Notes under the pieces: generated by a model
Seen by the model: the letters and a program-made list of their open reading frames with translations, nothing else
Databases searched by the model: none
Told to the model about the DNA's origin: nothing
Made by a program: the position numbers and the translations under genes
In this document: piece after piece, positions 6,129 to 23,289 of the stretch
Layout: every line of letters begins with the position of its first letter
How positions within the stretch are numbered: the first letter of the stretch is position 1
IMG/VR virus record: IMGVR_UViG_3300035130_000204
DNA length: 26,791 bases
Strand: one strand, 5' to 3'
Origin: an uncultured virus (IMG/VR IMGVR_UViG_3300035130_000204)
Taxonomy: Duplodnaviria > Heunggongvirae > Uroviricota > Caudoviricetes

Positions 6129-7127
6129 ATGTACGAGTACGTGCAGGGGCTGGGTCAGACAACGATGTTTCAGCACGGTGGTGCTCTGCCATCGTCGAGC
6201 GGCAGCCAAAGCAGCAGCACGATCGCGTCCACTGGGCCGTTGAGCTTCATGAAACATGGAGCCAAGCTCAGCCTCACGCCGAAGATGCCGGAGACAAAGG
6301 TTGCCTCCGCCAAGCTGACGGCAGCTCCAAGCACGAGCAAGCCGCCGACGACGGCTGTCATCCGTGACCTGGGCATCAAGGCACGAACGCAGTCAAGCGC
6401 TGCTGATCTGGCTTCGGCGCGGATCAAATCACTCGAGGACAAGATCGCGGCACTCACCTCCACTCTTGCTTCGGCGCAACAATCGGGTGCGCCTTCGGCA
6501 GAAGTGCAGCATTTGCAGCAGCAGGTGGCGAACTTGACCGCGGCACTGTCGGCAGCGCAGCAAGAGCACATTGCTGCGGCGCAGGCAGCGGCGGCTTTGC
6601 ACCGCGAGGAGATGTCAGCTCTGCAGATGCAGATCGCGGAGCTGGCGTCAGCCATGACAGCTGCGCAGACGGGCGGCAACGGCGAGGCCGCTGGCCAGGT
6701 CGCTGCCATGCAGGCCCAGATCGCCATGCTGCAGCAACAGCTGGCAGCCGCAGGGCAGGCGGCCGAAGCGGAGGAGCAGGCGGCGGCCGAAACGGCAGCG
6801 ACAGCTCAACCTGGCTTCTTCGAGCAGCACCGCAACACGCTGCTCATCGCAGGGGCTGCTGTGGCGGTCGCAGGGGCGGCCTACTGGTTCTTCCTGCGCC
6901 GGAAGCCGGCTGCGGGCCTACCTGCGCCGACCACGTCGGCTTCGCCGTCGGGACTCGCGGCCAATCCAATGCAGCGCGTCAAGTCCTACAGGCGCTCCGA
7001 TGGAACCCTGGTGAAGGCTCATGTGCGTCGCACCAAAAAGGGTCCTCGAAAGCCCAGGCGGTACACGAAGGCCGCCATGCGCAGGATGGGCTGGAAGCAC
7101 GACATCTACACCGGCGAAGTTTTGTAG
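6129..7127 (+). CDS. Coiled-coil, single-TM protein with basic C-terminal tail
   Basis: GGAGG RBS before ATG 6129. MYEYVQGLGQ leader, Ala/Gln heptads, TM LLIAGAAVAVAGAAYWFFL, ANP then VKSYRRSDGTLVKAHVRR. Confidence 0.8.
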   Translation: MYEYVQGLGQTTMFQHGGALPSSSGSQSSSTIASTGPLSFMKHGAKLSLTPKMPETKVASAKLTAAPSTSKPPTTAVIRDLGIKARTQSSAADLASARIKSLEDKIAALTSTLASAQQSGAPSAEVQHLQQQVANLTAALSAAQQEHIAAAQAAAALHREEMSALQMQIAELASAMTAAQTGGNGEAAGQVAAMQAQIAMLQQQLAAAGQAAEAEEQAAAETAATAQPGFFEQHRNTLLIAGAAVAVAGAAYWFFLRRKPAAGLPAPTTSASPSGLAANPMQRVKSYRRSDGTLVKAHVRRTKKGPRKPRRYTKAAMRRMGWKHDIYTGEVL

Positions 7128-7137
7128 GAGGCGTCCT

Positions 7138-8427
7138 GTGAGCTACGCGTTCCTTAAAGGTCTCGGAGCGCTCGGCGAAGCGCTTGGTGAGTTGCAGTTC
7201 TCAGGACGCGGAGACATCCGCGGCCACAAGGACTACCCTCCGGACCAGGGCGGCAAGAACTTTCACTTCCGCGACTGTCGACTAAAGCGCGAGGGCAGCG
7301 GGGCCTACGGCTCCGTCTGGGACTGCAACAGGATTGACCATAAGACCGTTCTGGTCCGACCAGGAGATAACCCTCCGCTACCAGAGGGCGACGATCCCGA
7401 GCGCAACTGCAAGCGGACGTCCATCACGTCAAGCGGAACCCGGTATTTCAAGTGCCCCCGCTGGGTCGTGGATGCCGAGGTAACCGAGGGGGAGGCGGCT
7501 CAGTACGCTGACCAGTGCCTCATCGAAGGTCAGCAGGGGACGCCGGAGTGGAGGCTCAAGTCAGCTTCGCGTCCCGACCGTGGATCATCATCCGACAGGT
7601 TCTTTCACTACACTGACGTCGTTCGCGGCGACCATGTGCTGCGATGCAAGTTCGCTGAGCCGATACCGAGCAAAGAGCGCGCTTTTCAAGCCGCAGCCCA
7701 TGCTCGTCTCGTTTCCGCAGGCAAAAGGTTCGTCACCGTCGCGGAGCAAGAGCAGTACGGCTCGTTGTGCCAGCCTCGAGTTACGGCCACGGGCGTCGAG
7801 GTCCCGACGAGGTTGTCGTGGCGCAAGAAGACCGACTACATCGGTACCGCGATTCAGCGCACTGAAGTGACCGATGGCGACTACATCCTGGTCTGCGTGC
7901 CGGACACTTCGAAGGTCAAGATGGTCATCGACGCGGAGCTGACGAGGCTTCAGCAGGCACGGGCCAACGCGATGACGCAGCAGCGGTCTGCGGCTGAGCA
8001 GCAAGCTCTCGAGGAGGCACAAGCTGAACTGCAGCGCATTCTTGCTGCTGGCGAAGAGCCCCAGGCTCCGTTCTGGGTGCGATACAAGGTCCCGCTGCTC
8101 ATGGTTGGCGGCATGCTTGTCCTCGGCGCCGGTGCGGCACTTGTTCAGCGCGCATTGACAAAGCGCAAGAAAATGACCGCGAATCCAGACGTCTTCGCAG
8201 AGACTGAAGGTGACGGGCTCTGGATTTTCTACTGGCAGCAGCCGGGTACGAGTCGCGCTGACGCAACCGTGATCGGTTGGTCAATGGTCAGTGATGACCC
8301 CGATGGTGGGTACAGCCTCGTGACAGAGTCGGCGGCTGACCGTGACGTTGGTGTATTTCACAGCTTCGACGATGCTTCGAAATGGCTCGTCAGGAAAACC
8401 TGGCGCGTCGTACCAGGAGGATTCTGA
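7138..8427 (+). CDS. Cys-rich single-TM protein with C-terminal beta-beta-beta-alpha domain
   Basis: AGGAGG RBS before GTG 7138. MSYAFLKGLG leader, TM VPLLMVGGMLVLGAGAALV, KRKKMTANP then the appended domain. Confidence 0.8.
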   Translation: MSYAFLKGLGALGEALGELQFSGRGDIRGHKDYPPDQGGKNFHFRDCRLKREGSGAYGSVWDCNRIDHKTVLVRPGDNPPLPEGDDPERNCKRTSITSSGTRYFKCPRWVVDAEVTEGEAAQYADQCLIEGQQGTPEWRLKSASRPDRGSSSDRFFHYTDVVRGDHVLRCKFAEPIPSKERAFQAAAHARLVSAGKRFVTVAEQEQYGSLCQPRVTATGVEVPTRLSWRKKTDYIGTAIQRTEVTDGDYILVCVPDTSKVKMVIDAELTRLQQARANAMTQQRSAAEQQALEEAQAELQRILAAGEEPQAPFWVRYKVPLLMVGGMLVLGAGAALVQRALTKRKKMTANPDVFAETEGDGLWIFYWQQPGTSRADATVIGWSMVSDDPDGGYSLVTESAADRDVGVFHSFDDASKWLVRKTWRVVPGGF

Positions 8428-8804
8428 TGAGCTACGAGTACGAGTACGCGATGGGCACCAACGGCACGAGCAATGTTGGCAGCGGCACAGTGCACAGGAT
8501 TGTTAGTCCAGCCCTGCGCCTGAAGTTCGCAGCGCCTTCTACGCCCTCGTTCGACATGCCAGCATACGACAGAGGCTACATCAACGGCAGGGCGGACACC
8601 CCTGCGTCAACTGACGAACCAAGTGCCGATCCGGACGAGCCCGATTTCATGACGACCACGGAAGAATCCTCGGTCGTGCCTTGGGTCATCGGCGGAGGTG
8701 CGGTCATCGCTCTCGGCGTCGGCGGCTACTTTCTCTGGAAGCACCTGACCAAGGAAGATAGCCCTGCTGTTGCGGGGCCATCGATGAACCCCATGGAGCA
8801 GTGA
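8427..8804 (+). CDS. Small single-TM protein
   Basis: AGGAGG RBS and TGATG overlap. MSYEYEYAMGTNG leader, TM VVPWVIGGGAVIALGVGGYFLW, ends SMNPMEQ. Confidence 0.8.
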   Translation: MSYEYEYAMGTNGTSNVGSGTVHRIVSPALRLKFAAPSTPSFDMPAYDRGYINGRADTPASTDEPSADPDEPDFMTTTEESSVVPWVIGGGAVIALGVGGYFLWKHLTKEDSPAVAGPSMNPMEQ

Positions 8805-8811
8805 CGACCCC

Positions 8812-11043
8812 GTGCCCGTAATCCTAAAGAGCCCAGGTGCTCCACTTTACGCTGAGCGCCTTCCAAACGGCGGCTACAGGCTACTGGAGGCACAGGCCGG
8901 CCTGGGCTCCGATGGCGTCCGTGCGCACGTTATGGCAGCTCCTAGCGTGGCTGCTGGCTCCCCTGGCATCTGGACTGCTCGAGAGATTGGTCCAGAGGGC
9001 CATTACGGACCAGAGAAATACGTCGACCGCAATCTGACCGTGGGTATCGGCCCCAATGGGCGAACAGGCAAGATGCGTCGGGCCAAGCTCTATCACTCGG
9101 TGCCGATCAAACCTGTCGGCGATATCGAGCAAGCAGCTCTGGCCCCGCTGCCGCCCGCCAACCCATGGGTTCTTGCAGCTATGGGCCTTGCTGCCGGCTT
9201 CTTGGGCCTTCGGTGGCTGCTCCAACGCAGAATCAAGCGGAATCCGGCTTGGACCAGCGAAGAGAGCAAGCTCGGCGATCAGTGGTCAGTCTGGACGCCA
9301 GACGGCGAGTTCATCGGCTACGTCCTCAGGATGCCAGGATACTTCGCGGCGCTCAACGACAATGGTGCGGTCATCGGCAAGATGGGCTCGCTGATCGAGG
9401 CTGAGGCGCTGGTCTACGGCAATTGGTCCTACCGTTTTGGCAGCTTCGACACCTTGGTCGCAAACCCTCCCTGGCGCATCGAGTGGCTGTTCGATATCGG
9501 CATGGTCTGGACGGGCTCTGCCGGAGGCTCCAACATCGGTCAGGTCACCGAGCAGGACGGCAAGTTCAGGGCAGACACCGGGCGCCACAGCCAGACTTTC
9601 GACTCGATAGACGAGGCCGCAGCGTGGCTGTATTCACAGCATGCGCCCAGCGAGGCCTCGCAGAGATCGATCCGCAAGGCCAAGAGGGAGATCGAGCGCG
9701 AGGAGATGCGAGAAGAGCGCATCTACATAACGCCCGAGGAGGTCCGCCACCGCATCCTGGTCAACCTGGGCCGGCAGAAGAAGCAGTCGAAGACCTACAG
9801 GCGCGACCCTTCCGTGGTGCGCGCAGACAAGGAACGTGAGGGCTACTCGTACCACACTTCGGTCATGCGCGACGTGACCTTCACCTTTCCCAAGCCGCTT
9901 TCGGAAGACCAGCTGACCCGCAAGGTCAAGGCGTCCAAGTCGCGAGTGCTCAAGCACGCCAAGCAGATGGCTCGCGACGGCGAGATCTACGGCTACTGCC
10001 ACAAGGTTCCGGTGGTGGTACCTGCAGTAGAGCGTGATGCTCGAGGCCGCAAGGTCATGACGGCCAAAAAGGCCAAGCGGCGCAGCAAGACCTACTGCTA
10101 CTTCGCGACGCACGGTCCAGGCGGCGAGCTTGGCCTGTTCAAGGCCGGCGAGCACAAGGTCCCCGAAGGCATCCAGACGCGGCTTCACCGCGGCGACACG
10201 GTCTACATCAAGGGCGCCGTCAAGCCAGAGCCGCTCTACGTCAGCCGCTTCAGCTTCGATTTCGAGGGCCAGCTGCAGGCCTACGTGCAGAAGTTCGGCC
10301 CTGCGATGACTGTTCCTTCTCCGAAAGAATCAGGCGAGTGGGTGCGGGTCGAGCAGCTGCAGCTGGCAACAGTGCCAAACCCTAAAGCCCGGAAGCAGAC
10401 CAAGGTCCTTGCTGCGCCAGAAATAACGATCGTCGAACATCCAGAGCCTGGCGATGACCCCGAGGCGCCCGCCAAGCGTGCGCACAGCTTCTATGTGGGC
10501 GACGAGGAAATTGGTGGAGCTAAATCCCACGCCTCGTATATGAGCTTCTTCAGCCTTGGTGAGTGGCAAAAACGCGGCGACCCCAATCGGCTCATCGTCT
10601 TCTACATCGACAAAAAGGGTCGGATCAGGACCATCGCGAAGGGTCATGGTCGCTTCGGAAGAGCGTACCCGAAGGTCTACACACCCGAGGAGGCGGCTCA
10701 GCTCGCCTATCAGCATTGGAGCCGTGATCGCGGTGGCATTGGGCCCATCTGGCACAACCCCGAGCAGACCGCGTTCCGGTTCTCAGCCGGACCGTCCTAC
10801 ATCGTCAAGGAGCGGAAGCCGAAGGGCCGCGGACGCGACGGACGGATGTTCTACGAGGAGTGGAAGACCGTGAGCAATCACGACACGCTCGAGTCGGCCA
10901 AAAAGGCGGCCACAGTTCATATCCCCAAGGGCGGTAGCCGAAGGTGGCTCAGGCAGCGCGCCATCTTCCTGCGCGGCAAGCGCGTGAGCAACGGACCGTT
11001 TTTGCTTCGAGAGTTCAAGGACCTCCCCGAGGTACCGAGGTAG
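8812..11043 (+). CDS. Large multidomain single-TM protein segmented by Asn-Pro motifs
   Basis: 743 aa ORF with IGPxG repeats, TM WVLAAMGLAAGFLGLRWLL, four post-TM NP motifs and very basic segments. Confidence 0.8.
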   Translation: MPVILKSPGAPLYAERLPNGGYRLLEAQAGLGSDGVRAHVMAAPSVAAGSPGIWTAREIGPEGHYGPEKYVDRNLTVGIGPNGRTGKMRRAKLYHSVPIKPVGDIEQAALAPLPPANPWVLAAMGLAAGFLGLRWLLQRRIKRNPAWTSEESKLGDQWSVWTPDGEFIGYVLRMPGYFAALNDNGAVIGKMGSLIEAEALVYGNWSYRFGSFDTLVANPPWRIEWLFDIGMVWTGSAGGSNIGQVTEQDGKFRADTGRHSQTFDSIDEAAAWLYSQHAPSEASQRSIRKAKREIEREEMREERIYITPEEVRHRILVNLGRQKKQSKTYRRDPSVVRADKEREGYSYHTSVMRDVTFTFPKPLSEDQLTRKVKASKSRVLKHAKQMARDGEIYGYCHKVPVVVPAVERDARGRKVMTAKKAKRRSKTYCYFATHGPGGELGLFKAGEHKVPEGIQTRLHRGDTVYIKGAVKPEPLYVSRFSFDFEGQLQAYVQKFGPAMTVPSPKESGEWVRVEQLQLATVPNPKARKQTKVLAAPEITIVEHPEPGDDPEAPAKRAHSFYVGDEEIGGAKSHASYMSFFSLGEWQKRGDPNRLIVFYIDKKGRIRTIAKGHGRFGRAYPKVYTPEEAAQLAYQHWSRDRGGIGPIWHNPEQTAFRFSAGPSYIVKERKPKGRGRDGRMFYEEWKTVSNHDTLESAKKAATVHIPKGGSRRWLRQRAIFLRGKRVSNGPFLLREFKDLPEVPR

Positions 11044-11052
11044 GAGAACAAC

Positions 11053-11547
11053 ATGGCATTCGGAGATGACAAGTTCTACGGCTGGCAGGGCAAGACGCTG
11101 GTGCTCGACCCTGGCACGTTCGCCTACGACCTTCCGCGCCGAGGTGCGGACTGGCAGGTGCAGTACTTCCCGATGGGCTCCAATGGCAACGGGAACGGCG
11201 TAGTCAGCGAGCTGGAGCAGTCGGGTCAGCACCTGGTCCGTGCCGGCGAGGCCGCTGCTCAGCAGGTGGCTCCTGCCATGAACCCCATCGAGGCGTGGGT
11301 GCGTCAGAACCCGCTCCTCGCGCTCATCGTAGGCGCTGGCGCGGGCGTGCTGCTCTACCGCATGTTGAAGCAGCGGTCGATGCGTGCCAACCCAGACATC
11401 GAGGAGAAGTTCCGCTACCTCATCCGTGGCGGCGCTGCTCGCGACGACGACAATTTCCTCAACCGCGTCTCTGACCTCATGCGCAAGAAATACGGCTACT
11501 CGCAGGGGCAGGTCGAGGAGATGTTCGCAGAAGAGGGCGCGCTGTGA
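11053..11547 (+). CDS. Single-TM protein
   Basis: AGGAGA RBS. PMGSNGNGNG, TM LLALIVGAGAGVLLY, RSMRANP then a small helical domain. Confidence 0.8.
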   Translation: MAFGDDKFYGWQGKTLVLDPGTFAYDLPRRGADWQVQYFPMGSNGNGNGVVSELEQSGQHLVRAGEAAAQQVAPAMNPIEAWVRQNPLLALIVGAGAGVLLYRMLKQRSMRANPDIEEKFRYLIRGGAARDDDNFLNRVSDLMRKKYGYSQGQVEEMFAEEGAL

Positions 11548-12275
11548 GCTACCACGGCATGGGGTCGGCGCCAGTTCTGCCATGTCCAACGAACTGTTGG
11601 CCGCGTCGCAACCCGGACGGAACTTTCGGACCTGAGTGCGACTGCGCCGCCTACGGCCCACCGCCTGGCGGTTCTGCAGCCTCTGAGGAGCTGCGGCGGA
11701 GACAAGCGGAGGCTCTTGCCATGAGAGCCCGTGGACAGGCTTGCCTCGATGCTGGTGGTCGTGAGTTTCGCCATCGCGGGCGCGAGTGCCCTGAAGGATC
11801 GATGTTCGTCAACCAGTTCAACATGGCACCGGCAGGCGTCCGCATGTACGAGCCGGGGGCGATTTGCTGCCAGCCTGCAGCAACCACGCAGTCAGCGACT
11901 ATTTTGATCCCCACGAGCTGCGTCCAGTACCTGCGCGGACTATCGCGAGCCGAGGTGTCATCACTCGCGGCCAGGTGGGCAGGCTATCAGCGCGCAGTGA
12001 CGGCGTGGCGCACGCAGACGATCGATCCAAGCCGCCGCTTGGAGATGGGCGCACGAGGTCCTGCGCCGGTCTTCCAGGGGACGCCGTCGGAGCGCGCTTG
12101 CGCTCGCCATGCAGGCCAGTGGCTCGAGCAGACGCCAGAGCGTCCTTGGTACGCACACCCGGCCGTCATGGTCGCAGGCGCTGCCATCGGAGCCATGACG
12201 CTGTACTCCTGGCTGACGCGGCGCCCCGTAGTACCTAAGGCTGGACCACCTCTGCTGGGAGGACAGCCCCGATGA
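11544..12275 (+). CDS. Cys-rich protein with C-terminal TM anchor
   Basis: GTGA overlap. MSYHGMGS leader, multiple Cys including a CC pair, TM AVMVAGAAIGAMTLYSWL. Confidence 0.75.
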   Translation: MSYHGMGSAPVLPCPTNCWPRRNPDGTFGPECDCAAYGPPPGGSAASEELRRRQAEALAMRARGQACLDAGGREFRHRGRECPEGSMFVNQFNMAPAGVRMYEPGAICCQPAATTQSATILIPTSCVQYLRGLSRAEVSSLAARWAGYQRAVTAWRTQTIDPSRRLEMGARGPAPVFQGTPSERACARHAGQWLEQTPERPWYAHPAVMVAGAAIGAMTLYSWLTRRPVVPKAGPPLLGGQPR

Positions 12276-12841
12276 GCTATGAGCGACCCATGGGCTCAGA
12301 GGTCTACGCTGCCAGTGCCATCGGCTCGAAGATCATGCCGGGCTGGAACGTCCAGCGCATCACGCCAGAGGGTGAGCGCGGTCCGCTGATGCCGACGCCA
12401 AGGCGCTTCGCGGCACCAATCGGAAACGGCCCGGTGCGACCGTACAAGACGCTCTTCGGCCGTGCCATCGGGCCGCAGGGACCCACGGGTCCCGTGACGG
12501 CACTTGGAGACAACGGCGATCGTCCGTTCACACAGCTCGTGATGGGCGCGGTCATTGTTGGCCTCGGATTTTTCGTTCTATTTCGACCGTTGCGCAAAGA
12601 ACGCAATCCCAAGCGCAAGCTCCTAGGGATGTCACCCAAGGGCGAGCGTCTCTTCGGCGAGCTGAATCCTGAGGACATTCGATACATGCACGTCTACGCC
12701 GTGAAGGACGGTCGTGAACGCTACGTCGGCCAGGTGCTCGACACGGGTGGCGCTTACTTTGCCGTGCTTCCATCGGGCAGACAGGTTCACGCTCATACAG
12801 CCAAGGAAGCTGCCGAGGTCCTGGTTGGGATAGGAGTTTGA
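12272..12841 (+). CDS. Single-TM protein with IGPxG repeats and C-terminal beta-beta-beta-alpha domain
   Basis: ATGA overlap. MSYERPMGS, ALGDNG, TM LVMGAVIVGLGFFVLF, RKERNP. Confidence 0.8.
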   Translation: MSYERPMGSEVYAASAIGSKIMPGWNVQRITPEGERGPLMPTPRRFAAPIGNGPVRPYKTLFGRAIGPQGPTGPVTALGDNGDRPFTQLVMGAVIVGLGFFVLFRPLRKERNPKRKLLGMSPKGERLFGELNPEDIRYMHVYAVKDGRERYVGQVLDTGGAYFAVLPSGRQVHAHTAKEAAEVLVGIGV

Positions 12842-14116: not shown

Positions 14117-14133
14117 AGGAAAAGAGACGTGTG

Positions 14134-14499: not shown

Positions 14500-14505
14500 A
14501 CGAAC

Positions 14506-15360: not shown

Positions 15361-15381
15361 CTACTTAAGGAGTACGTTAAC

Positions 15382-15909: not shown

Positions 15910-15915
15910 GGCAGC

Positions 15916-16293: not shown

Positions 16294-17060
16294 TGTCTTA
16301 CGATTTCGTAGACCGAGGGGACATGTGGTTCGGCCACGTCTTCGATGTATACGAAGGCGATGACTGGATCGGCGGCGTGATGCAGGGAAAGCAAAACCCA
16401 AGATGGAGCGCCGTCACGCCTTCCGGTGCAAGCGCAGAGTCCCTGCCCTTTGCAACGCGAGAGGAGGGCGCCTGCTGGCTCGATGCTCAAGGCGTTCGAG
16501 TACCCAAGACGAAGAAGTGGCGCTATTCACCGCCTATATACGCCGTTCTCGGGCCGGTCGAGCCGGCCATGGGCAACAACGGATCGGCAACGCCATCGAT
16601 AGCAAGCCGGACGATCGTGGCTTCGCAAGACGCCATCGAACGCGATGCTGGCGAGCCAGAAGATCCAGACATCGTCGACGACCGATGGGAAGCAGCAGGC
16701 GAGGAGCTGCAACACGCGCTGCGGATCTTCCAGCGAAGAACGTGGGAAGACCCTTACGCCATTTTCCTTGCGATCACTGTCGGAGCTGCGCTGGCTCCGG
16801 CAGCCATTGCTGGTGGCATCGCAGGACGCCGAGAAGATGCGACTGCAAAAGGCGTCGCTGTGGGACTCGGAGCCGCTGCAGCCACGGCGCTGCTCATGAA
16901 CCCAGTAAGCGTTTTGATCACGGGGCGTCGTAACGCAATTCCACAGGCGATCATGCACATCGGCGGAGGCTACACGCCGTTCGTTCTCGCGCTTCTCGCT
17001 TCTGCTGGGGTTGGATACGGCGCTTCGTTCCTGGCAACGAGAGACACGGAGACACCATGA
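16293..17060 (+). CDS. Membrane protein: N-terminal beta-beta-beta-alpha domain plus multi-TM domain
   Basis: GGAGGAG RBS and TGATG overlap. MSYDF leader, AMGNNGS, three hydrophobic segments, GGGYT. Confidence 0.8.
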   Translation: MSYDFVDRGDMWFGHVFDVYEGDDWIGGVMQGKQNPRWSAVTPSGASAESLPFATREEGACWLDAQGVRVPKTKKWRYSPPIYAVLGPVEPAMGNNGSATPSIASRTIVASQDAIERDAGEPEDPDIVDDRWEAAGEELQHALRIFQRRTWEDPYAIFLAITVGAALAPAAIAGGIAGRREDATAKGVAVGLGAAAATALLMNPVSVLITGRRNAIPQAIMHIGGGYTPFVLALLASAGVGYGASFLATRDTETP

Positions 17061-17587
17061 GCTACGCCCAGGTCACCCGCGGCAAGCATCTGTTCGGGGG
17101 CGTCTACGAAACGCTCGTCGACGGTGAGGTCATCGGCGTCACAAAGCAAGGGCGCAACAACCCATGGTGGACCCCAGGGGTCAGACCAACCTTGGGTTCC
17201 ATAGAAGACTGGACGCGAAACCCTTTCCGGCTGGCAGTGGTGGTCGCCGTGGGCATCGCAGGGGTGGCAGTGATTACCGAAATGGCCAAGGTGTTCCGCT
17301 TCAAGCGGCGTGTTTACGTCAATCCGTTGAGCGTCTCCGATGCACGAAATCTAGGGCGGATGCTTGGCGTCAACTGGGAATCTGTCGACTACGGACCGGC
17401 ACAGCTGCGTGCCGGCATACTCGTGGAGCAAGAGCACGGGCCTGGTGGCCCGGCTGGAATGATGGGTGATGTCACACACGGTGATACGCTGGAGACGGCC
17501 AAGATAGCGCTGGCGCACCTCGAGGAGCTGCCCGACTACTATATCCGGCTCGCCGAGATGGAAGCACGGGGCGAGTGCGAGGTCTGA
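17057..17587 (+). CDS. Single-TM protein with C-terminal DUF5661-like domain
   Basis: QLRAGILVEQEHG..DVTHGD..TAKIALAHLEELPDYYIRLAEME matches the DUF5661 pattern as I recall it. TM LAVVVAVGIAGVAVI, then YVNP. Confidence 0.8.
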   Translation: MSYAQVTRGKHLFGGVYETLVDGEVIGVTKQGRNNPWWTPGVRPTLGSIEDWTRNPFRLAVVVAVGIAGVAVITEMAKVFRFKRRVYVNPLSVSDARNLGRMLGVNWESVDYGPAQLRAGILVEQEHGPGGPAGMMGDVTHGDTLETAKIALAHLEELPDYYIRLAEMEARGECEV

Positions 17588-17590
17588 GCG

Positions 17591-18931
17591 ATGAAGGACT
17601 CGACCACAAGAGCAGTCACCTGGCTCGACAACTACTCCATTATCCGCGAGTTCGGCGCCTCGAAGTACGCCGCGCAGCAGTGGATGGACGCGAGCAGCGA
17701 CAGCATCCAGGGTGCACTGGTTCAGGCTTCACGTGAAGAGATGGCAGCGGCCTCTGATGAGGCGCGTCTTCGCGACAAGGCGATCGGCCGTACAGTCGGT
17801 GACACCGTCATGGCCATCGGTGCCTCTGTATTCACTGCCGTCGGTGCTACCGGAGTTGGTGCCATCGTCGGCGCCGTCATCGCAGCTGTCGGAGGCATCA
17901 TCAGCGGCCTAACGGAGCTGTTCACGGTCGAGTGTGACGAGTGGGACTGCCCTTGGCCCAAGAGCTTCCACCGTCGCGGCATCGTAGGCGTCGACATCGG
18001 CCGCGTCGATGAGGGTTTTCACCTGCTCGACGACGACAAGCGGTGCATGTACTTCCACCGTCGCTGCACGCTGTACGGATACTTCCATGACGGCCAGATG
18101 ATCGACGGGATCTCCAAGGACCCTGACAACCCGAACGTCACGGGTCGTGTCGTCGGTTGCAACGGCAGCCGTGTCGGCAAGTACTCGCGGCCAATCCGCG
18201 ATGCTTGGATGCGTCACAGCTCGAATCCTCAGGACGTGCCCAAGGGCAGCATCGGCTCGCCGTGGAACGACCCACCGACGACCCGCGCTCACCGCGGCTG
18301 GAAGGTCAGCTGGGTGCTGTACTGGCTTCGCGACAAGATGCCCTGCCGCATCCTCAGCTGCATGGAGGAGATCCTCAAGAACACACAGCGAGGAGACAAG
18401 GACGCCAGCAAGTTCGACGCGCAACGACGTCGAGGTGGCCGTTGGTACGCCTCGATCGTCTGGATGATGAACGACGTATGGGAGATCGGTCAGTCGATCG
18501 GCTCTGAGCGCTTCGAGCAGGTGCTTCGCTCCCAGGGGCAGGACAATGCTGCCGATGTCGTCAAGCGGATCAGGACCGAGCAGCTGGTCTTCGAGCCTGA
18601 GGACCTGCCGTTCCCCTTCTGGCCTGTGATGCGCCACTGCTCCTGGGAGGGACTGCGCAAGACGCTCATCGCCATGAAGCCGATGATTCCGGCCGAGGGC
18701 CCCTGGGCAGGAACGCAACCCGAGGGAGAGCAGCGACGAGTAGTCAAGGTTGGCCTCGCACCGATGATGCCTCGTCGCGTGGTCCCGCTAATTTTCGACC
18801 CCAAGCGGCTGCGGCCAATACCCGCGAAGACAGGTTCGAGGCTTCCCGAGTGGCCTGTTCTGGTTGCAGGAGGCGCTGCAGCCGTCATCGGCGCTGTCGC
18901 TATTTTTCAGGCGCTCAAGAAGAAGGACTAG
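17591..18931 (+). CDS. Cys-rich protein with N-proximal hydrophobic hairpin and C-terminal TM anchor
   Basis: VMAIGASVFTAVGATGVGAIVGAVIAAVGGIISGL, several Cys, WPVLVAGGAAAVIGAVAIF-KKKD. Confidence 0.8.
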   Translation: MKDSTTRAVTWLDNYSIIREFGASKYAAQQWMDASSDSIQGALVQASREEMAAASDEARLRDKAIGRTVGDTVMAIGASVFTAVGATGVGAIVGAVIAAVGGIISGLTELFTVECDEWDCPWPKSFHRRGIVGVDIGRVDEGFHLLDDDKRCMYFHRRCTLYGYFHDGQMIDGISKDPDNPNVTGRVVGCNGSRVGKYSRPIRDAWMRHSSNPQDVPKGSIGSPWNDPPTTRAHRGWKVSWVLYWLRDKMPCRILSCMEEILKNTQRGDKDASKFDAQRRRGGRWYASIVWMMNDVWEIGQSIGSERFEQVLRSQGQDNAADVVKRIRTEQLVFEPEDLPFPFWPVMRHCSWEGLRKTLIAMKPMIPAEGPWAGTQPEGEQRRVVKVGLAPMMPRRVVPLIFDPKRLRPIPAKTGSRLPEWPVLVAGGAAAVIGAVAIFQALKKKD

Positions 18932-18934
18932 GGC

Positions 18935-19558
18935 ATGTACGAGTACGACATCCGTGGCCTTGGCCAGGCAGAGCAACCGCAAAGCGGAGCGGCTGCCAGC
19001 GAGGCGCTCACTTGGATCATCGACACGCCCATAGGTCCAAGAAAACGCGTCGGCATGCACATCGTAGGCCCTAGCGGCTTGCGCCACACCTGCCACTGCT
19101 ACGAAGAGCTTCCTCGCGACATGGTCGCTGCGATTGCCAGACCGTACGCGCTCGAGTTCACGACGGGGTTCTTCGGCAAGAAGTACGAATGCGGATGCGA
19201 GCCTGTCTGGGCATGGTGTCCCGAGGAGATTCGCCCGATCCCTGCTGCGCCAGGCTTTGCAAAGAAAAAGAAGCAGTGCGAGGCGTACAAGCAGCGAGCC
19301 AAGGCGAAGCTGCCCGAGTCCTACAAGGACGTCGAGGATGAGGGGTTTCGGCTGGCAATCGCCCAGAACCTCGGCCGTGCTGCAGGCCTGACCGAGGACC
19401 AGGTGTCTCGGCTCAAGCCAGCCGAGTTCCTGACGGTCGCAGAGGAGAAGTCGCGCCGTGCGGCTGGCATCTGGACCTTGAGCGCTATCACTGTTGCTGC
19501 AGGTGGCGGCTACCTGCTGTGGAGTTTCCTGCGCAGTCGAAAGAAGGCGAAACCATGA
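18935..19558 (+). CDS. Cys-containing protein with C-terminal TM anchor
   Basis: AAGGA upstream. MYEYDIRGLGQ leader (cf. 6129), CHC and CGC motifs, TM IWTLSAITVAAGGGYLLWSFL. Confidence 0.8.
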   Translation: MYEYDIRGLGQAEQPQSGAAASEALTWIIDTPIGPRKRVGMHIVGPSGLRHTCHCYEELPRDMVAAIARPYALEFTTGFFGKKYECGCEPVWAWCPEEIRPIPAAPGFAKKKKQCEAYKQRAKAKLPESYKDVEDEGFRLAIAQNLGRAAGLTEDQVSRLKPAEFLTVAEEKSRRAAGIWTLSAITVAAGGGYLLWSFLRSRKKAKP

Positions 19559-19794
19559 GGTACGAGAGGTACGAGCGGGCCACGTACGGCCCTGGTGACA
19601 TCGCAGCGCTTCCGCCGACCATCGGGCTGACCTCGAGGCGTCCGACGATTGGCTCTGAGGATGCGGGTCGTCCCATTCCGTCGATCCTCGACAGCATGGG
19701 AAACAACAACGGACAGACTGGCAGCTCCAATCCTTGGCTGCTGCCGCTCGGCATCGGGCTCGCCGTTGGCGGCCTGATTTTTCTGGCAAGGTAG
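19555..19794 (+). CDS. Small C-terminal-TM protein, paralog of 19811..20086
   Basis: ATGA overlap. YGPGDIAALP..GLT..PTIGS, SMGNNNG, TM WLLPLGIGLAVGGLIFL. Confidence 0.75.
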   Translation: MRYERYERATYGPGDIAALPPTIGLTSRRPTIGSEDAGRPIPSILDSMGNNNGQTGSSNPWLLPLGIGLAVGGLIFLAR

Positions 19795-19810
19795 CCAGAG
19801 GGAGAACGTC

Positions 19811-20086
<276 letters not shown>

Positions 20087-20295
20087 GTGATGGGTCAGGT
20101 CGGTGTCGCCCCGTGGGCTATCGCATCGTCGAGAGCTATGGAACGCTTCCAGAGGCGCGAGAATACGTCGCTGAGGAGTTCGGACTTCCTCGTCCTGTTC
20201 CCGCTGTCACGGTACTTCCAGCGCTAACGCCCAAGGTCACGCCCAAGCAGCCGTATCTTCGTACGGTGAGCGTCTTCTATCCTCAGGAGAATCAG

Positions 20296-21780
20296 ATGGG
20301 ATACGAATACGAGCAGGCCCTCGTCGGCGTCGACGAGGTCGATGGGACCAGCTACTATTCAACAACTGATACGCCCGGCTGGCCTGCGCCGATTCCCATG
20401 GCCGACAACGGCGAGCAAGCGATCGAGCAAGCTGCTTCTGTTCAGCCCTGGCATCAGCGAATGCCCTGGTGGGGTTGGGCAGCGGCTGGCGCTGGTCTCT
20501 TCGGGTTGTTTCACGTACTGAGGACAAAGCCACTGGTGCGAAACCCTGAAGACGAAGAAGTTGCAGCTATCGACGATGGGCCAGATGAGCAAAGGCTTAC
20601 CGATATGCAGGCAGCTCAGCAGGCCGCAGCCATCTCTGCAGAAGCAGGACTACCTGTTATCCTGTGGGGACCTCCTGGCATAGGCAAGACCGCATGGGTC
20701 GAAGCGCTTGGCAAGACCTTGAGAGCCAAGGTCATCACCGTCATCGGCTCCACTCGTGACCCGACCGACATTGCTGGAACACTCACGCCATCGGGGGATC
20801 TGATCCCTCCGTCGTGGGCTCGAGAAACCCAGGAGCGATCCAGAGCTGGCAAAAAGACCTTGCTGTTTCTCGATGAGTTCTCGTCGATGAGCCCGCTCGT
20901 CCATGCTGCACTGCTTCGCGTTGTCCGTGACAAGATTGCGGGCGACGCGCTGCTAGACCCTGCAGGCACACCGTGCAGGCCGAGTATCCGTGACCGCGGT
21001 TGCGTCTACATCGTCATGGCCGCCAACCGTCCCGAGGAAGGCGCCGGTGCGCTCGAGCTTCCGCCTCCGGCCGCCAACCGCATCGTTCACATCTTCTGGC
21101 CGCGTCCCGACATTGGTGAATGGATCAAAGGCCTGACGCTGGGCTGGGATACGCTCACGATCAGGATTCCAAAGCTTCCGGAGAACTGGAAGCAGACGAA
21201 GGAAGCCAAGCAGGCCTACGCCACCATCGCGGCCTACGTCCAGAAGTCCCAGATGCTCCTTGACATGCCTCAGACCGAAGCCGAGGCTGGCTACGCATGG
21301 CCCTCACCGCGGTCGTGGGAGCTTGCCGCCGAAGGTTACGCTGCGGCCGTAGTGGTCGGAGCGCCCAGAAAGGTGCAGCGGCTCATCGTTGCAGGAGCGG
21401 TCGGCGAGGGACAGGCACTGCAGTTCATGAACTTCTCGGTGCTCAAAGATCTTCCCGATCCAGAAAAGATGCTCAAAGCACCGACTAACTGGAAGGTGCC
21501 TGACACGCCGGACAAGCTCTACCTTGCGCTTTCATCGATGGTCTTCGCCATGATGCGAGACCACTCGCGGCAAAAGTTTGTCAACGCATGGAAGGCCTAC
21601 GCCTATGCCATAAACGAGCGTCCTCAGGATATACCGACCGCCACCCCTGCCATGTACCCTGCAGTCGAGCTGTTCCAAGAGTACCCGATGGCGCCCGTCA
21701 TGAAGGATGTCGGTCCAGAGAACATGAAGCCCTTCGTCAAGATGATGAAGAAAGCCGGCCTGATTCCCAGCACGAAGTAG
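20296..21780 (+). CDS. MoxR-like AAA+ ATPase (AAA_5 type) with N-terminal leader and TM anchor
   Basis: Walker A GPPGIGKT (20668-20691), Walker B LLFLDE, MAAN sensor 1, PAANR arginine finger, WPSPRSWE. AGGAGA RBS before ATG 20296. The frame is also open from GTG 20113. Confidence 0.9.
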   Translation: MGYEYEQALVGVDEVDGTSYYSTTDTPGWPAPIPMADNGEQAIEQAASVQPWHQRMPWWGWAAAGAGLFGLFHVLRTKPLVRNPEDEEVAAIDDGPDEQRLTDMQAAQQAAAISAEAGLPVILWGPPGIGKTAWVEALGKTLRAKVITVIGSTRDPTDIAGTLTPSGDLIPPSWARETQERSRAGKKTLLFLDEFSSMSPLVHAALLRVVRDKIAGDALLDPAGTPCRPSIRDRGCVYIVMAANRPEEGAGALELPPPAANRIVHIFWPRPDIGEWIKGLTLGWDTLTIRIPKLPENWKQTKEAKQAYATIAAYVQKSQMLLDMPQTEAEAGYAWPSPRSWELAAEGYAAAVVVGAPRKVQRLIVAGAVGEGQALQFMNFSVLKDLPDPEKMLKAPTNWKVPDTPDKLYLALSSMVFAMMRDHSRQKFVNAWKAYAYAINERPQDIPTATPAMYPAVELFQEYPMAPVMKDVGPENMKPFVKMMKKAGLIPSTK

Positions 21781-21798
21781 TTCATCGGAGGCTTTGTC

Positions 21799-23289
21799 AT
21801 GCACGACTATCCGCCTCGCCCGTATCTCGCAAACCCCCAGCCTTCAGCAGAGGTGCTCGAATACCTGCAAGCAGCAAGGATGTACCTGGTTGCACCCAAG
21901 CAGAGGCCGTACCTCGCTGTCCCGGCATTCAAGTTCGAGTACATCGCAACCGAGCGTATCGACACTGCCGCTGTAGATTCGAGCTGGCGTTTCTACTACA
22001 ACGAGGAATACGTCCTGCAGGCCGCAACCGACCCGCAGCTCGGTGGAATTCCATCGATCGCTGCGGTCACCGAGCACGAGCTATGGCACTTGCTGCGAAA
22101 GCACGCTGACCGAGCCGCCGCTGCAGGGGCTGTTACCAAGGCTCAGCTGAAGCTTTTCAACTGGGCAGCCGACATCGAGATCCACTCGGACGAGGCCCTG
22201 GCCAACGCCATTCGCACAACTGGCATAGAGCCGTTGACGCCACAATACTTCAACTTCGAGCCTCATAAGCTCGCCGAGGTGTACTACGCAAAGCTGCTCG
22301 AAAAAATATCCGACCATGGCGAGGACGAGGGTGGCGAATACATCGAGATCGAAGTCGAGGCCCCCAAGGATGCAATGCCACCAGGCGCGCCGCCCCCTCC
22401 AAGCGAAGCACAACGACCAGGTCCCTCTGGTGGCATCGGCGAAGACGGCGAGAAGGGCGACCGCGAAAAGGTCACAATAAAGGTCTACGTTGACCCTGAA
22501 GAGCCAACCGTGGGCGCTGGCGACTGCGGATCTGCCGCTACTGGAGAACCGGCGCCGTGGGAGGAGGCCCCATCAGGGCGCGTTTCGGACGACGAGGCCG
22601 ACATGGCCAGGGCTCAAGTCGCCCAGAGCATCGAAGAGTGGATGAAGCAAGGTGCGCCAGGCATGGGCACACAGGCCTACGACGGCATCATCGAGTGGTC
22701 AAAGAACCTCCTTCACCCGAAGGTGCCTTGGCAGCAGGTGCTCCGTTCCGCATTGCGTAGCGCAGTCGCCTGGGTTTCTGGCCAAACGGAGTATTCCAAG
22801 CGACGCTTCTCTCGTCGCCAATCTGCTATGCCTCACGTCGTTCTTCCTGGCATGGTCCACCCGGTACCTGAGATTGCAGTAGTCATGGACGCCTCAGGCT
22901 CGATGTTCATCCAGGGAGAGCGCGCATCGTTGTTCGAGGAGGCCGTCAGCGAGGTTGCTGGCATACTCAAGAAGTTTGGAAGCACCATTGGCGTAACCGT
23001 ATACAGCGTCGATGCTGCTGTTGGCTGGGCATCGCGTGTATACAGCGCCAGTCAGCTGCGCGGCATCGGAGGTGGCGGTACGAACATGGGCATCGGGATC
23101 GAAGCAGCCGCCAAAGCCAGGCCCAAGCCGCAGGTTATCGTTGTCGTTACCGACGGTGAAACCCCGTGGCCCGAGCGAGGACCACACGGGATCAAGACGG
23201 TCATTGCCATCGTCGGCAACAAAGACCACGTCATCAACTACGGCGATCCACCTCCTCCTTGGGCATGGAAGGTCATCTGGGTGGACTAA
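21799..23289 (+). CDS. DUF2201-like protein: putative HExxH metallopeptidase plus VWA domain
   Basis: RPYLA, TAAVD, HELWH..RKH, FNWAADIEI, acidic/Pro linker, CGSAATG, VPWQQVL, MIDAS DASGS, GGGGT, VTDG. GGAGG RBS. This is the usual partner of this ATPase type. Confidence 0.9.
   Translation: MHDYPPRPYLANPQPSAEVLEYLQAARMYLVAPKQRPYLAVPAFKFEYIATERIDTAAVDSSWRFYYNEEYVLQAATDPQLGGIPSIAAVTEHELWHLLRKHADRAAAAGAVTKAQLKLFNWAADIEIHSDEALANAIRTTGIEPLTPQYFNFEPHKLAEVYYAKLLEKISDHGEDEGGEYIEIEVEAPKDAMPPGAPPPPSEAQRPGPSGGIGEDGEKGDREKVTIKVYVDPEEPTVGAGDCGSAATGEPAPWEEAPSGRVSDDEADMARAQVAQSIEEWMKQGAPGMGTQAYDGIIEWSKNLLHPKVPWQQVLRSALRSAVAWVSGQTEYSKRRFSRRQSAMPHVVLPGMVHPVPEIAVVMDASGSMFIQGERASLFEEAVSEVAGILKKFGSTIGVTVYSVDAAVGWASRVYSASQLRGIGGGGTNMGIGIEAAAKARPKPQVIVVVTDGETPWPERGPHGIKTVIAIVGNKDHVINYGDPPPPWAWKVIWVD

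What the first reader, a model, noticed from the sequence alone, without database searches (positions are those of the whole stretch)
6963..21837. TM-basic-Asn-Pro-cargo grammar: NP marks where unrelated domains are appended to membrane anchors
Seen: NP follows the TM helix, usually after a basic stretch, and precedes a new domain at AANP 6963, KKMTANP 8182, SMNP 8787, IKRNP 9241, SMRANP 11389, KERNP 12605, LNP/VPNP 14707/14728, YVNP 17321 and LVRNP 20542. It also occurs without a TM at YLANP 21832. Cargoes differ: basic tail, beta-beta-beta-alpha domains, helical domain, DUF5661, AAA+ ATPase, peptidase-VWA. Established: Asn-Pro bonds autocleave in FlhB/YscU (NPTH) and reovirus mu1. Inference: a modular loading-and-release system in which cargo is tethered to a membrane (e.g. 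virion interior) and freed at N-P, or NP is a docking tag.
Basis: partly seen in the sequence, partly recalled or inferred. Interest (0 to 1): 0.85.

Follow-up and report, generated by a model that had tools for sequence, protein, structure and literature searches.

The report
Conserved Asn-Pro joint after membrane anchors
In a block of small membrane proteins from an uncultivated, probably viral or other mobile element, the point where a membrane anchor meets its attached domain is nearly always marked by an asparagine-proline pair that is kept unchanged in distant relatives, so it looks like a new tag for handling or releasing anchored proteins, though nobody has yet shown what reads it.

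Summary
All 11 NP sites are at the stated coordinates. NP occurs in 9 of 13 30-residue stretches after a TM helix, against 7% expected (P=2.5e-8). It is the top dipeptide of 400. Collapsing paralogous anchors gives 6 of 9 (P=9e-6). Unrelated contigs show no excess (15 of 186).

NP is under selection. All 57 TM-anchored MoxR homologues keep it, 48 of 55 at 6-7 residues past the helix. Four diverged w12272 orthologues keep it. VWA-peptidase orthologues keep it at their N-terminus without a TM.

NP lies at module borders. It sits in low-confidence linkers in 2 of 2 AF2 models. It sits where free-standing DUF5661 proteins begin, and at soluble-soluble joints in relatives. Anchors without cargo lack it.

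Cleavage is untested. The FlhB NPTH, reovirus mu1, 2A, NPxY, PPEP and sortase-signal definitions are not met.

My best reading (0.4) is a motif read in trans at the membrane face, probably a processing site. The adjacent anchored AAA+ and VWA-Zn-peptidase pair is the candidate reader. Rivals: passive linker punctuation, docking only, self-cleavage, translational pause.

The parts
6129..7127 (+). Gene w6129 (332 aa). Coiled-coil-like N-part, TM at aa 236-256 (nt 6834-6896), NP at nt 6963-6968 (23 aa after the TM), then a basic tail.
7138..8427 (+). Gene w7138 (429 aa). Cys-containing N-part, TM at aa 318-337 (nt 8089-8148), KRKKMTA-NP at nt 8182-8187, then an 80-aa C-terminal module.
   Evidence: residues 276-352 are homologous to w11053 47-116 (E=1e-5), and the homology ends 3 aa after NP.
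8427..8804 (+). Gene w8427 (125 aa). TM at aa 81-104 (nt 8667-8738), NP at nt 8787-8792, only 3 residues before the stop, so there is no cargo.
8812..11043 (+). Gene w8812 (743 aa). IGPxGxxGP ectodomain. NP immediately before the TM (nt 9160). TM at aa 117-133 (nt 9160-9210). RRIKR-NP at nt 9241-9246. Then a chain of modules with further NP at nt 9463, 10378 and 10756.
   Evidence: paralogous to w12272, w12843 and w11053 in the ectodomain and TM.
11053..11547 (+). Gene w11053 (164 aa). NP-TM-basic-NP: NP at nt 11308, TM at aa 85-102 (nt 11305-11358), SMRA-NP at nt 11389-11394, then a 50-aa helical tail.
   Evidence: homologues in L020 and L021 end right after the TM with no cargo and no NP, whereas L027 2850-3437 has cargo and NKNP.
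12272..12841 (+). Gene w12272 (189 aa). MSYE start, IGPQGPTGP motif, TM at aa 85-104 (nt 12524-12583), RKER-NP at nt 12605-12610, then a 77-aa C-terminal module holding a second conserved NP (nt 12665).
   Evidence: NP is kept in all 6 sequences that cover it.
12843..13535 (+). Gene w12843 (230 aa). A paralogue of w12272 and w8812 with a TM (aa 95-110) and a 120-aa tail but NO NP. This is a counter-example.
14506..15360 (+). Gene w14506 (284 aa). Weak TM at aa 45-60 (nt 14638-14685), LL-NP at nt 14707-14712 and VP-NP at nt 14728-14733, then a 209-aa module.
17057..17587 (+). Gene w17057 (176 aa). MSYA start, NP before the TM (nt 17219), TM at aa 59-74 (nt 17231-17278), KRRVYV-NP at nt 17321-17326, DUF5661 from aa 96.
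   Evidence: PF18905, E=2.4e-15, residues 96-171; homologue matches begin at query residues 88-94, and NP sits where free-standing DUF5661 proteins start.
20113..21780 (+). Membrane-anchored MoxR-type AAA+ ATPase. The likely start is MGYE at nt 20296. TM at nt 20476-20520, LVR-NP at nt 20542-20547, AAA+ core after a low-confidence linker.
21799..23289 (+). DUF2201_N putative Zn metallopeptidase (HExxH) plus VWA/MIDAS protein. It has a disordered N-terminal extension holding NP at nt 21832-21837 and no TM.
   Evidence: PF13203, E=1.6e-23, and PF09967, E=2.4e-11. NP lies within the first 13 residues in 9 of the 12 closest orthologues and in none of 14 distant ones; residues 1-12 have pLDDT<50 and the first helix is 17-30.
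13541..20086 (+). Interleaved genes whose TM sits at or near the C-terminus with no appended module and no post-TM NP. These are w13541, w15916, w16293, w17591, w18935, w19555 and w19811. w14134 (no TM) and w15382 (51-aa tail, no NP) also lie here.

Best explanation
The Asn-Pro pair is a real, selected short linear motif. Its form is a basic stretch, often two hydrophobic residues, one variable residue, then N-P. It sits in a flexible segment at the N-terminal border of cytoplasmic modules. In anchored proteins it lies a fixed 6-12 residues past the TM helix.

I think it is read in trans by one common factor at the cytoplasmic face of the membrane, and that the most likely outcome is site-specific processing that detaches a module from its anchor or from the preceding module. 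The best candidate reader is the conserved pair encoded at the end of the block: a membrane-anchored MoxR AAA+ ATPase and a VWA protein carrying an HExxH peptidase domain. Together they would resemble a split FtsH-like membrane protease.

Shown here: the motif exists, is enriched, is conserved, has fixed spacing to the membrane, lies at module borders, and travels with cargo.
For: 1. Enrichment is specific to this block and its relatives, and is absent from controls.

2. Conservation is as strict as at catalytic residues. N144 and P145 are invariant in an alignment with 36% mean column identity (35 of the 57 long forms were aligned, chosen because my first TM finder had displayed the motif). 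All 57 long-form MoxR homologues have NP. N is never replaced by the other helix-cap residues S, T or D. The codons vary (AAC/AAT, CCN), so the constraint acts on the protein.

3. Spacing to the TM is tight: 6-7 residues in 48 of 55. The NP-to-Walker-A distance is 27-32 in 47 of 55 but reaches 114, so insertions fall only after NP. This ties NP to the membrane face, not to the AAA+ fold.

4. NP lies in low-confidence, non-regular segments in both AF2 models. Packing inside a fold therefore does not explain its invariance.

5. The motif occurs without a TM at the extreme N-terminus of the clade's VWA-peptidases (9 of the 12 closest, 0 of 14 distant). It also occurs there in DUF5661 homologues: P0156 starts MRRNP and P0274 starts MSNP.

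6. It occurs at soluble-soluble joints in P0295, P0296 (before DUF7694) and P0181.

7. It travels with cargo. The L027 homologue of w17591 gained a C-terminal domain after SPKSNP. Cargo-less homologues of w11053 and w17057 (L020, L021, P0164, P0167) stop after the basic residues without NP.

8. A peptidase domain with intact HExxH and a VWA with an intact MIDAS (D364, S366, S368, T428, D452 invariant) is encoded next to the anchored AAA+ in the window and in relatives.
Against: The DUF2201_N/MoxR pair also exists in organisms and phages whose proteins lack the motif. The pair is therefore not specific to the motif.

MoxR ATPases are known as remodelling chaperones, not as protease partners (recalled; PMC7159879 passages).

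At 8787 cleavage would free only three residues.

Four of 13 tails in the window, and several in relatives, lack NP. Some relatives have RNT, RNW or RNM instead.

Three or more of the window's anchors are paralogous. Part of the pattern is therefore inherited, not independently selected.
Confidence: 0.4

Rival explanations
1. Passive structural punctuation. N-P is this lineage's preferred helix stop/start signal at module borders. It is inherited along with shuffled anchor or cargo cassettes, and no factor reads it.
For: NP also sits immediately before the TM helix in 4 of 24 TMs (P=0.004), a classic helix N-cap position.

In the AAA+ model a short helix starts right after NP, and D or E often follows NP (32 of 55 orthologues).

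Anchors of w7138, w8812 and w11053 are homologous up to 3 residues past NP, as expected if cassettes recombine at the joint.

N followed by P cannot deamidate through the backbone route (recalled chemistry), so it is a durable choice for an exposed Asn.
Against: A cap position normally tolerates S, T or D, yet N is invariant in 57 of 57 orthologues at about 40% identity.

The fixed distance to the TM, with free insertion after NP, is not expected for the cap of the cargo's first helix.

A linker signal has no role at the extreme N-terminus of soluble proteins (VWA-peptidases; P0156, MRRNP).

Nucleotide context around the NP sites is not shared, so homologous recombination at a conserved DNA joint is not supported in the window.
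Confidence: 0.25
2. Docking tag without cleavage. The basic-hydrophobic-N-P stretch binds a common hub at the membrane face, for example the VWA MIDAS site with the acidic residue after NP, or another conserved core protein. All modules, and the TM-less VWA-peptidase, would thereby be gathered into one assembly.
For: The motif is kept at the N-terminus of the soluble VWA-peptidase, which would recruit it to the same place as anchored partners.

The 8787 site, with only 3 residues after it, makes sense as a tail tag.

The motif is disordered and has fixed spacing from the membrane.

vWA domains of MoxR-vWA systems are described as peptide binders (PMC7159879 passages).

Eukaryotic NPxY tails are a precedent for a juxtamembrane docking turn. 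This is recalled; only search listings were seen.
Against: NP at internal soluble-soluble joints far from any membrane (P0295, P0296, P0181, w8812) is not needed for docking at the membrane.

The acidic residue after NP is absent in several sites, for example NPKRK, NPAW and NPMQ.

No partner was identified.
Confidence: 0.2
3. Self-cleavage at N|P by asparagine cyclisation (asparagine peptide lyase chemistry). This could be catalysed by local structure, or be slow and spontaneous as a timer.
For: Both residues are strictly kept. Where P is replaced, N stays (RNT, RNW, RNM). This fits a mechanism in which only Asn is essential.

An acidic residue often follows.

Viral coat proteins and FlhB/YscU use this chemistry (PMC3207474 passages).
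Against: The review passages read state that cleavage by these lyases occurs when a second acidic active-site residue is brought close to the Asn. Here the neighbouring domains are unrelated (DUF5661, AAA+, peptidase, small beta-alpha modules) and the sites are predicted disordered.

None of the 11 sites has the NPTH motif.

Uncatalysed Asn-Pro cleavage is very slow (recalled).
Confidence: 0.1
4. Translation-level signal. A basic stretch plus Asn-Pro, often with the rare AAT codon, pauses the ribosome at module borders to aid membrane insertion or domain folding.
For: Seven of 11 juxtamembrane NP sites in the window use AAT, against 18% AAT among all Asn codons of the block (nominal P=0.001). 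Pro is a slow substrate for peptide bond formation (recalled).
Against: The AAT bias is not kept in the high-GC relatives: AAC at 4 of 4 sites in L020, L024 and L025.

When NP is being decoded the TM is still inside the exit tunnel, which is the wrong distance for targeting.

A pause does not explain invariance of Asn itself.
Confidence: 0.05

Closest known systems
FlhB/YscU/EscU export-switch proteins (MEROPS N6), which self-cleave at N|PTH
   Same: A membrane anchor is followed on the cytoplasmic side by an Asn-Pro bond that separates two parts of the protein. Asn is the key residue.
   Different: NPTH lies in a loop of one conserved folded domain, which supplies the catalytic environment. 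Here there is no TH (0 of 11 sites), no such domain, the cargo domains are unrelated, and the linkers are predicted disordered.
Reovirus mu1 (MEROPS N7) and other viral coat proteins that self-cleave at Asn
   Same: Cleavage at Asn-42 frees a membrane-active N-terminal piece, mu-1N (PMC3207474 passage). That the residue after Asn-42 is Pro is recalled, not in the passage. The setting is viral.
   Different: That cleavage depends on the mu1 fold and on assembly. It is a eukaryotic dsRNA virus with a myristoyl group, not a TM helix. No sequence or family similarity was found here.
C-terminal tripartite sorting signals (LPXTG/sortase, PEP-CTERM/exosortase, GlyGly-CTERM/rhombosortase)
   Same: A short motif, a TM helix and a basic cluster are shared by many unrelated proteins of one genome and are read by one dedicated enzyme. 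The motif marks where the anchor is cut from the cargo.
   Different: The order is mirrored here (TM, basic, motif, cargo), with the motif on the cytoplasmic side and the cargo C-terminal. No sortase-like gene is in the window. This comparison is recalled knowledge, not a tool result.
Pro-Pro endopeptidase PPEP-1/Zmp1 and its VNP|PVP sites in anchored adhesins
   Same: A zinc metallopeptidase recognises an Asn-Pro-containing motif and releases anchored proteins. I saw the search listing and abstract starts only. The exact site and its position near the anchor are recalled.
   Different: It needs Pro-Pro at the scissile bond. Only 1 of the 11 sites here is NPP. It acts outside the cell, belongs to a different peptidase family and occurs in Firmicutes.
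Propeptide and targeting-sequence removal by phage prohead proteases (T4 gp21, phiKZ gp175)
   Same: One short cleavage motif is shared by many unrelated proteins of one virus and sits at the border between a targeting piece and the mature protein (recalled).
   Different: Those motifs end in Glu. The targeting piece is soluble, not a TM anchor. No prohead protease, capsid or portal family was hit in the window.
FtsH (a membrane-anchored AAA+ fused to an HExxH protease)
   Same: TM anchor, AAA+ ring and zinc peptidase act at the cytoplasmic membrane face. Here the same three parts are spread over two adjacent genes.
   Different: The AAA+ here is MoxR-type, not classical-clade. The peptidase is DUF2201_N, not M41, and would be joined through a VWA domain. 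No activity is known for it.

Membership tests
FlhB/YscU NPTH autocleavage (MEROPS N6) | The tetrapeptide N-P-T-H at the cleavage site | tested here: not met
   None of the 11 NP sites is followed by TH.
FlhB/YscU NPTH autocleavage (MEROPS N6) | The site lies in a loop of the conserved FlhB-type cytoplasmic domain | tested here: not met
   No such Pfam family is hit in any of the 33 window proteins. The domains that follow NP are DUF5661, AAA+, DUF2201_N or unassigned.
Asparagine peptide lyases in general | Self-cleavage requires a second acidic active-site residue brought close to the Asn | tested here: not met
   NP lies in pLDDT<50 segments in 2 of 2 AF2 models. The defining statement was taken from PMC3207474 passages. 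D or E directly follows NP in 32 of 55 AAA+ orthologues, which is inconclusive on its own.
Asparagine peptide lyases in general | Demonstrated cleavage C-terminal to Asn | not testable with these tools
   This needs protein chemistry or proteomics.
2A-type ribosome-skipping peptides | The N-P-G-P core | tested here: not met
   None of the 11 window sites has it. NPGP occurs once, in the L025 VWA orthologue. The mechanism is known only for eukaryotic ribosomes (recalled).
NPxY/NPxF PTB-docking tails | An aromatic residue two positions after the Pro | tested here: not met
   None of the 11 sites has Y or F there.
PPEP-1-type sites | Pro-Pro at the scissile bond after Asn | tested here: not met
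   Only 14728 (VPNPPE) has NPP among the 11 sites.
Sortase/exosortase-type tripartite sorting signal | The order motif, TM, basic cluster at the C-terminus of a secreted protein | tested here: not met
   The order here is TM, basic, motif, cargo.
MoxR-type AAA+ ATPase (the cargo of the 20113-21780 gene) | An AAA+ core with Walker A/B and a MoxR-like profile | tested here: met
   Pfam AAA and AAA_5 are hit. P188, G189, G191, K192 and D254, E255 are invariant in 35 sequences. Homologues are named MoxR-like by their sources.
DUF2201_N peptidase plus VWA (the 21799-23289 gene) | An HExxH motif and a MIDAS DxSxS...T...D | tested here: met
   PF13203 (E=1.6e-23) and PF09967 (E=2.4e-11) are hit. HELWH is present. 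D364, S366, S368, T428 and D452 are invariant in 26 sequences. The model matches solved VWA domains. Peptidase activity itself is not tested.

The most novel reading that the evidence does not exclude
The basic-N-P joint is a new protein sorting and processing signal. It is a mirror image of the sortase or exosortase type. An uncultivated clade of large elements would use it to park many unrelated modules on the cytoplasmic face of a membrane through interchangeable N-terminal anchors. A split FtsH-like machine (the membrane-anchored MoxR AAA+ plus the VWA-Zn-peptidase) would then release or hand them over. The peptidase would carry the same tag on its own N-terminus for recruitment or self-activation.
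Probability: 0.2. Interest if true: 0.85.

Novelty: new variant of a known kind. Interest (0 to 1): 0.66.

Why it matters
Short motifs shared by many unrelated proteins of one genome have repeatedly led to dedicated machines such as sortases, exosortases, prepilin peptidases and prohead proteases. Here such a motif is strictly conserved, clade-specific and sits at a defined distance from the membrane. It also lies next to a conserved anchored AAA+/VWA-peptidase pair whose family (DUF2201_N with MoxR) has no known function.

If the motif is read by that pair, this would give the family its first substrate rule. It would also give a simple, testable handle (N-to-A, P-to-A) on how these elements load and release membrane-tethered proteins.

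The motif is also a practical marker. It predicts module borders in proteins with no detectable families, and it flags members of an element clade that is missing from both the viral and the species-genome collections searched.

I found no paper on it. Searches for 'DUF5661' and 'DUF2201'+'MoxR' gave 0 hits. 'Asn-Pro'+'juxtamembrane'+'cleavage' gave only eukaryotic NPxY and shedding papers. 'MoxR'+'von Willebrand'+'metallopeptidase'+'transmembrane'+'phage' gave 3 papers, none on this.

Tried and rejected
Genome context. No genome is held for the window. The records behind the related loci are not held either. The nature of the element (virus, plasmid or other) therefore stays open.

Close relatives. 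The phage record collection gave no tblastn match to the VWA-peptidase. IMG/VR held no close relatives of the AAA+ or the DUF5661 protein, only relatives at 22-36% identity with the profile. GTDB species genomes gave 2 weak, partial hits.

Protein families. PHROGs gave only the ATPase and VWA families plus weak hits. Pfam on the isolated post-NP modules gave nothing above threshold; the best was DUF2969 at E=5e-4, below its cut-off. Pfam on 43 proteins of relatives added only DUF5661, DUF5983 and DUF7694.

Other look-ups. The protein atlas gave no usable hit for the conserved core protein w17591. Earlier-findings look-ups returned nothing. Foldseek on the VWA-peptidase model returned only VWA domains and did not place the peptidase domain.

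Complex prediction (VWA-peptidase against the AAA+ juxtamembrane linker) was not available. No binding test was made.

First TM predictor. My first version (Kyte-Doolittle, 19-residue window, threshold 1.5) gave many false TMs and missed Trp/Gly-rich ones (9 of 33). I replaced it with an uncharged-stretch rule.

Rejected ideas:
- A DNA-level recombination motif. Only AAYCC is shared and the flanks differ.
- N-glycosylation sequon. Pro after Asn blocks known sequons (recalled).
- The cap of the AAA+ alpha0 helix. Insertions separate NP from that helix.
- A column tally of ten sites. One string was mis-registered, so it was not used beyond showing that only N and P are fixed.

Full report
WHAT THE WINDOW IS. 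All credible genes lie on the + strand, and GC is 0.56-0.64. Positions 698-5697 encode glycosyl-, methyl- and sulfotransferase-like proteins. From 5745 to 20086 there are about 20 small genes with no family assignment, nearly all with one hydrophobic helix. The block ends with a MoxR-type AAA+ ATPase (20113/20296-21780) and a protein combining the DUF2201_N putative metallopeptidase domain with a VWA domain (21799-23289). No genome is held for the window. The AAA+ clade is absent from the phage records. IMG/VR holds only relatives at 22-36% identity, and GTDB species genomes give 2 weak partial hits. The clade is present in 12 metagenome loci at 40-52% identity (L020-L031). No capsid, portal or terminase family was hit. 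The element is therefore uncultivated and of unknown kind. A virus or other mobile element is likely but not shown.

THE OBSERVATION. Every NP named in the finding is at the stated coordinate. I defined a TM as an uncharged stretch of at least 16 residues whose best 15-mer has mean Kyte-Doolittle hydropathy of at least 1.3. With that rule, 13 post-TM tails of at least 20 residues exist in 22 proteins. Nine of them hold NP within 30 residues, against 7.1% expected from the NP rate elsewhere in the same proteins (binomial P=2.5e-8; Fisher on positions P=1.5e-7). NP ranks first of all 400 dipeptides, and the runner-up has P=1e-3. NP overall is 2.9-fold over expectation in the block (27 observed, 9.4 expected). 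The ratio is 1.27 in the flanking genes and 1.27 in 44 unrelated loci. Those unrelated loci show no post-TM excess (15 of 186 stretches, P=0.43). Related loci show 10 of 36 (P=4.6e-5), even though 7 of the 36 are false TMs.

There are two caveats. The test is post hoc on the data that suggested it, and the anchors are not independent. w11053 47-116 aligns with w7138 276-352 (E=1e-5). w11053 86-114 aligns with w8812 117-145. w8812, w12272 and w12843 share ectodomain and TM. Collapsing to 9 lineages still gives 6 with NP (P=8.9e-6). Counter-examples exist: w12843, w15382, w5745 and the segment after the w17591 hairpin have tails without NP.

CONSERVATION. Of 120 listed homologues of the AAA+ protein, 115 matched my Walker A pattern. 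The 57 with an N-terminal extension (P0001-P0054, P0057, P0066, P0068) all have a Trp-rich TM followed by NP. The 58 short forms have neither. I aligned 35 of the 57, chosen because my first TM finder had displayed the motif. In that alignment N144 and P145 are invariant, like the Walker residues, while mean column identity is 36%. The spacing from the end of the uncharged stretch to N is 6-7 residues in 48 of 55; two records are N-terminally short. The distance from N to Walker A is 27-32 in 47 of 55 but reaches 114. Insertions are therefore tolerated after NP and not before it.

For w12272, all 6 sequences that cover the site keep NP. Four of them are 53-69% identical, and one is a 99% identical fragment. 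For the VWA-peptidase, NP lies within the first 13 residues in 9 of the 12 closest sequences (window, P0121-P0124, P0128, L020, L021, L025). It is missing in P0125 and P0127, and P0126 is N-terminally short. None of 14 more distant DUF2201 proteins has NP in its first 30 residues. Codons for both residues vary among relatives, so the constraint is on the protein. In relatives the Pro is sometimes replaced (RNT, RNW, RNM) while Asn stays.

NP LIES AT MODULE BORDERS.
- In the AF2 model of the AAA+ protein (mean pLDDT 72), the TM helix is 119-138. Residues 137-158, which hold NP at 144-145, are below pLDDT 50. The ATPase core starts at helix 164.
- In the model of the VWA-peptidase (mean pLDDT 79), residues 1-12 are below 50, NP is 12-13, and the first helix is 17-30.
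- For w17057, Pfam places DUF5661 at 96-171. An exhaustive search found 1,153 relatives, whose matches begin at query residues 88-94. Among the 150 best, 51 are free-standing proteins in which the distance from Met to the E.EH motif has median 36 (IQR 35-38). In the 7 proteins that carry NP upstream, the NP-to-E.EH distance is 32-37. NP thus sits exactly where independent homologues begin.
- Relatives show NP at joints between soluble modules. P0295 and P0296 carry an extra C-terminal domain after the w12272-type module, joined through a basic stretch with RNP or through ANP; in P0296 the added domain is DUF7694. P0181 strings DUF5661 and further modules through RNP, RNT and ANP. P0156 begins MRRNP without any TM and has a second NP right before DUF5661.
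- NP travels with cargo. The L027 homologue of w17591 has a roughly 190-residue domain appended after its C-terminal TM through SPKSNP, whereas the window protein ends four residues after the TM. Homologues of w11053 in L020 and L021, and of the w17057 N-part (P0164, P0167), stop after the TM and lack NP. The L027 homologue with cargo has NKNP.

WHAT THIS SUPPORTS AND WHAT IT DOES NOT. The descriptive claim, that NP marks where unrelated modules are joined to anchors, is confirmed. It extends to N-terminal and soluble-soluble joints.

The mechanistic claim is untested. The cited precedents fail their own definitions here. No site is NPTH, and no FlhB-type or mu1-type domain is present. The review passages I read (PMC3207474) state that cleavage by asparagine peptide lyases occurs when a second acidic active-site residue is brought close to the Asn. 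Here the sites are predicted disordered and flanked by unrelated domains. The 2A, NPxY, PPEP and sortase-signal definitions are likewise not met.

MOST LIKELY MECHANISM. Five features fit a short linear motif read in trans at the membrane face: invariance of both residues in a disordered segment; fixed spacing to the membrane but not to the cargo; presence at the N-terminus of soluble proteins of the same element; presence at internal joints; and gain together with cargo. They do not fit a fold element or a generic linker. Because the motif also marks internal joints, polyprotein-like processing explains more of the data than docking alone.

The only peptidase-like gene in the window is the DUF2201_N/VWA protein. 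Its HExxH and MIDAS residues are intact. It is syntenic with the anchored MoxR ATPase in the window and relatives. Together they have the parts of a split FtsH-like machine. This assignment is inference. The pair also occurs where the motif does not, and the binding prediction I tried to run was unavailable.

My estimates are:
- 0.40 for a trans-read processing site
- 0.25 for passive structural punctuation inherited with shuffled cassettes. This is supported by NP also capping the start of 4 of 24 TM helices and by anchor paralogy ending 3 residues after NP.
- 0.20 for docking without cleavage
- 0.10 for self-cleavage
- 0.05 for a translational pause. The AAT codon bias (7 of 11 sites against an 18% background) is not kept in high-GC relatives.

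NOVELTY. I found no description of this motif or of anchored MoxR proteins with it. Searches gave 0 papers. One search gave only eukaryotic NPxY and shedding papers. One search gave 3 papers, of which I read passages of PMC7159879; it treats other MoxR-vWA systems. I rate the finding as a new variant of a known kind (a shared sorting or processing motif), with moderate to high interest. The pattern itself is solid, but its function is still open.

Noticed in passing
window gene starts 6129, 7138, 8427, 11544, 12272, 12843, 13541, 14134, 15916, 16293, 17057, 18935, 19555, 19811, 20296: Fifteen of the 22 genes in the block begin with M-(S/G/R)-Y-(E/D) or MYEY, mostly as ATG AGC TAC GAG, often followed within 10 residues by (M/L)-G. 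Relatives show the same (MSYE, MYEY, MTYE, MSEY in L020-L027). This could be an N-terminal signal or an initiation-region constraint.
   Followed up: partly
window 8812-9100, 12272-12520, 12843-13110; L020 1436-2107 and 2567-3499: A repeated motif (R/N)-x-I-G-P-x-G-x-x-G-P, one to three copies, occurs in the N-terminal (presumed outer) parts of the paralogous anchors w8812, w12272 and w12843 and their relatives.
   Followed up: no
window 9160, 11308, 17219, 19729: NP also sits immediately before the TM helix in four proteins (4 of 24 TMs, P=0.004). w8812, w11053 and w17057 therefore read NP-TM-basic-NP.
   Followed up: partly
window 6963, 8182, 9241, 12605, 14707, 14728, 17321: Seven of the 11 juxtamembrane Asn codons are the rare AAT (18% of Asn codons in the block; nominal P=0.001). 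Other NP sites use AAC in 17 of 20. The bias is not kept in high-GC relatives.
   Followed up: partly
window 23963-26687; L020 13800-20539; L021 13703-20778: Downstream of the VWA-peptidase lie tandem paralogous genes of about 230-350 aa. They start with a hydrophobic strand and a Cys (MSIIxD..C, MAVDILVECG). There are up to eight or nine copies in relatives and no family hits.
   Followed up: no
L020 8309-11554, L021 8184-11305, L027 8109-11464, L023: Several relatives carry two tandem copies of the TM-anchored MoxR ATPase, each with its own TM and NP. The window has one.
   Followed up: partly
AAA+ homologues, about 20-40 residues before the TM; window protein lacks it: Most anchored MoxR homologues have a conserved I-E-x-C-A-x-G-C-type Cys motif in the short N-terminal, presumably extracytoplasmic, part.
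   Followed up: no
window 17591-18931 and homologues in L020, L021, L024, L027: This is the best-conserved unknown protein of the block (34-36% identity in relatives, E down to 1e-76). It has a long hydrophobic hairpin followed by E-C-D-(K/E)-(Y/W)-(H/D)-C and a C-terminal TM. There is no family or atlas match.
   Followed up: partly
window 698-5697: A cluster of glycosyltransferase-, methyltransferase- and two sulfotransferase-like genes lies directly upstream of the membrane-protein block.
   Followed up: no
window 21799-23289, residue about 66-70; alignment A3: Most DUF2201_N proteins have a conserved Y-Y-N-P inside the peptidase domain. The window protein has YYNEE there, so it lacks that internal NP while carrying the N-terminal one.
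   Followed up: no
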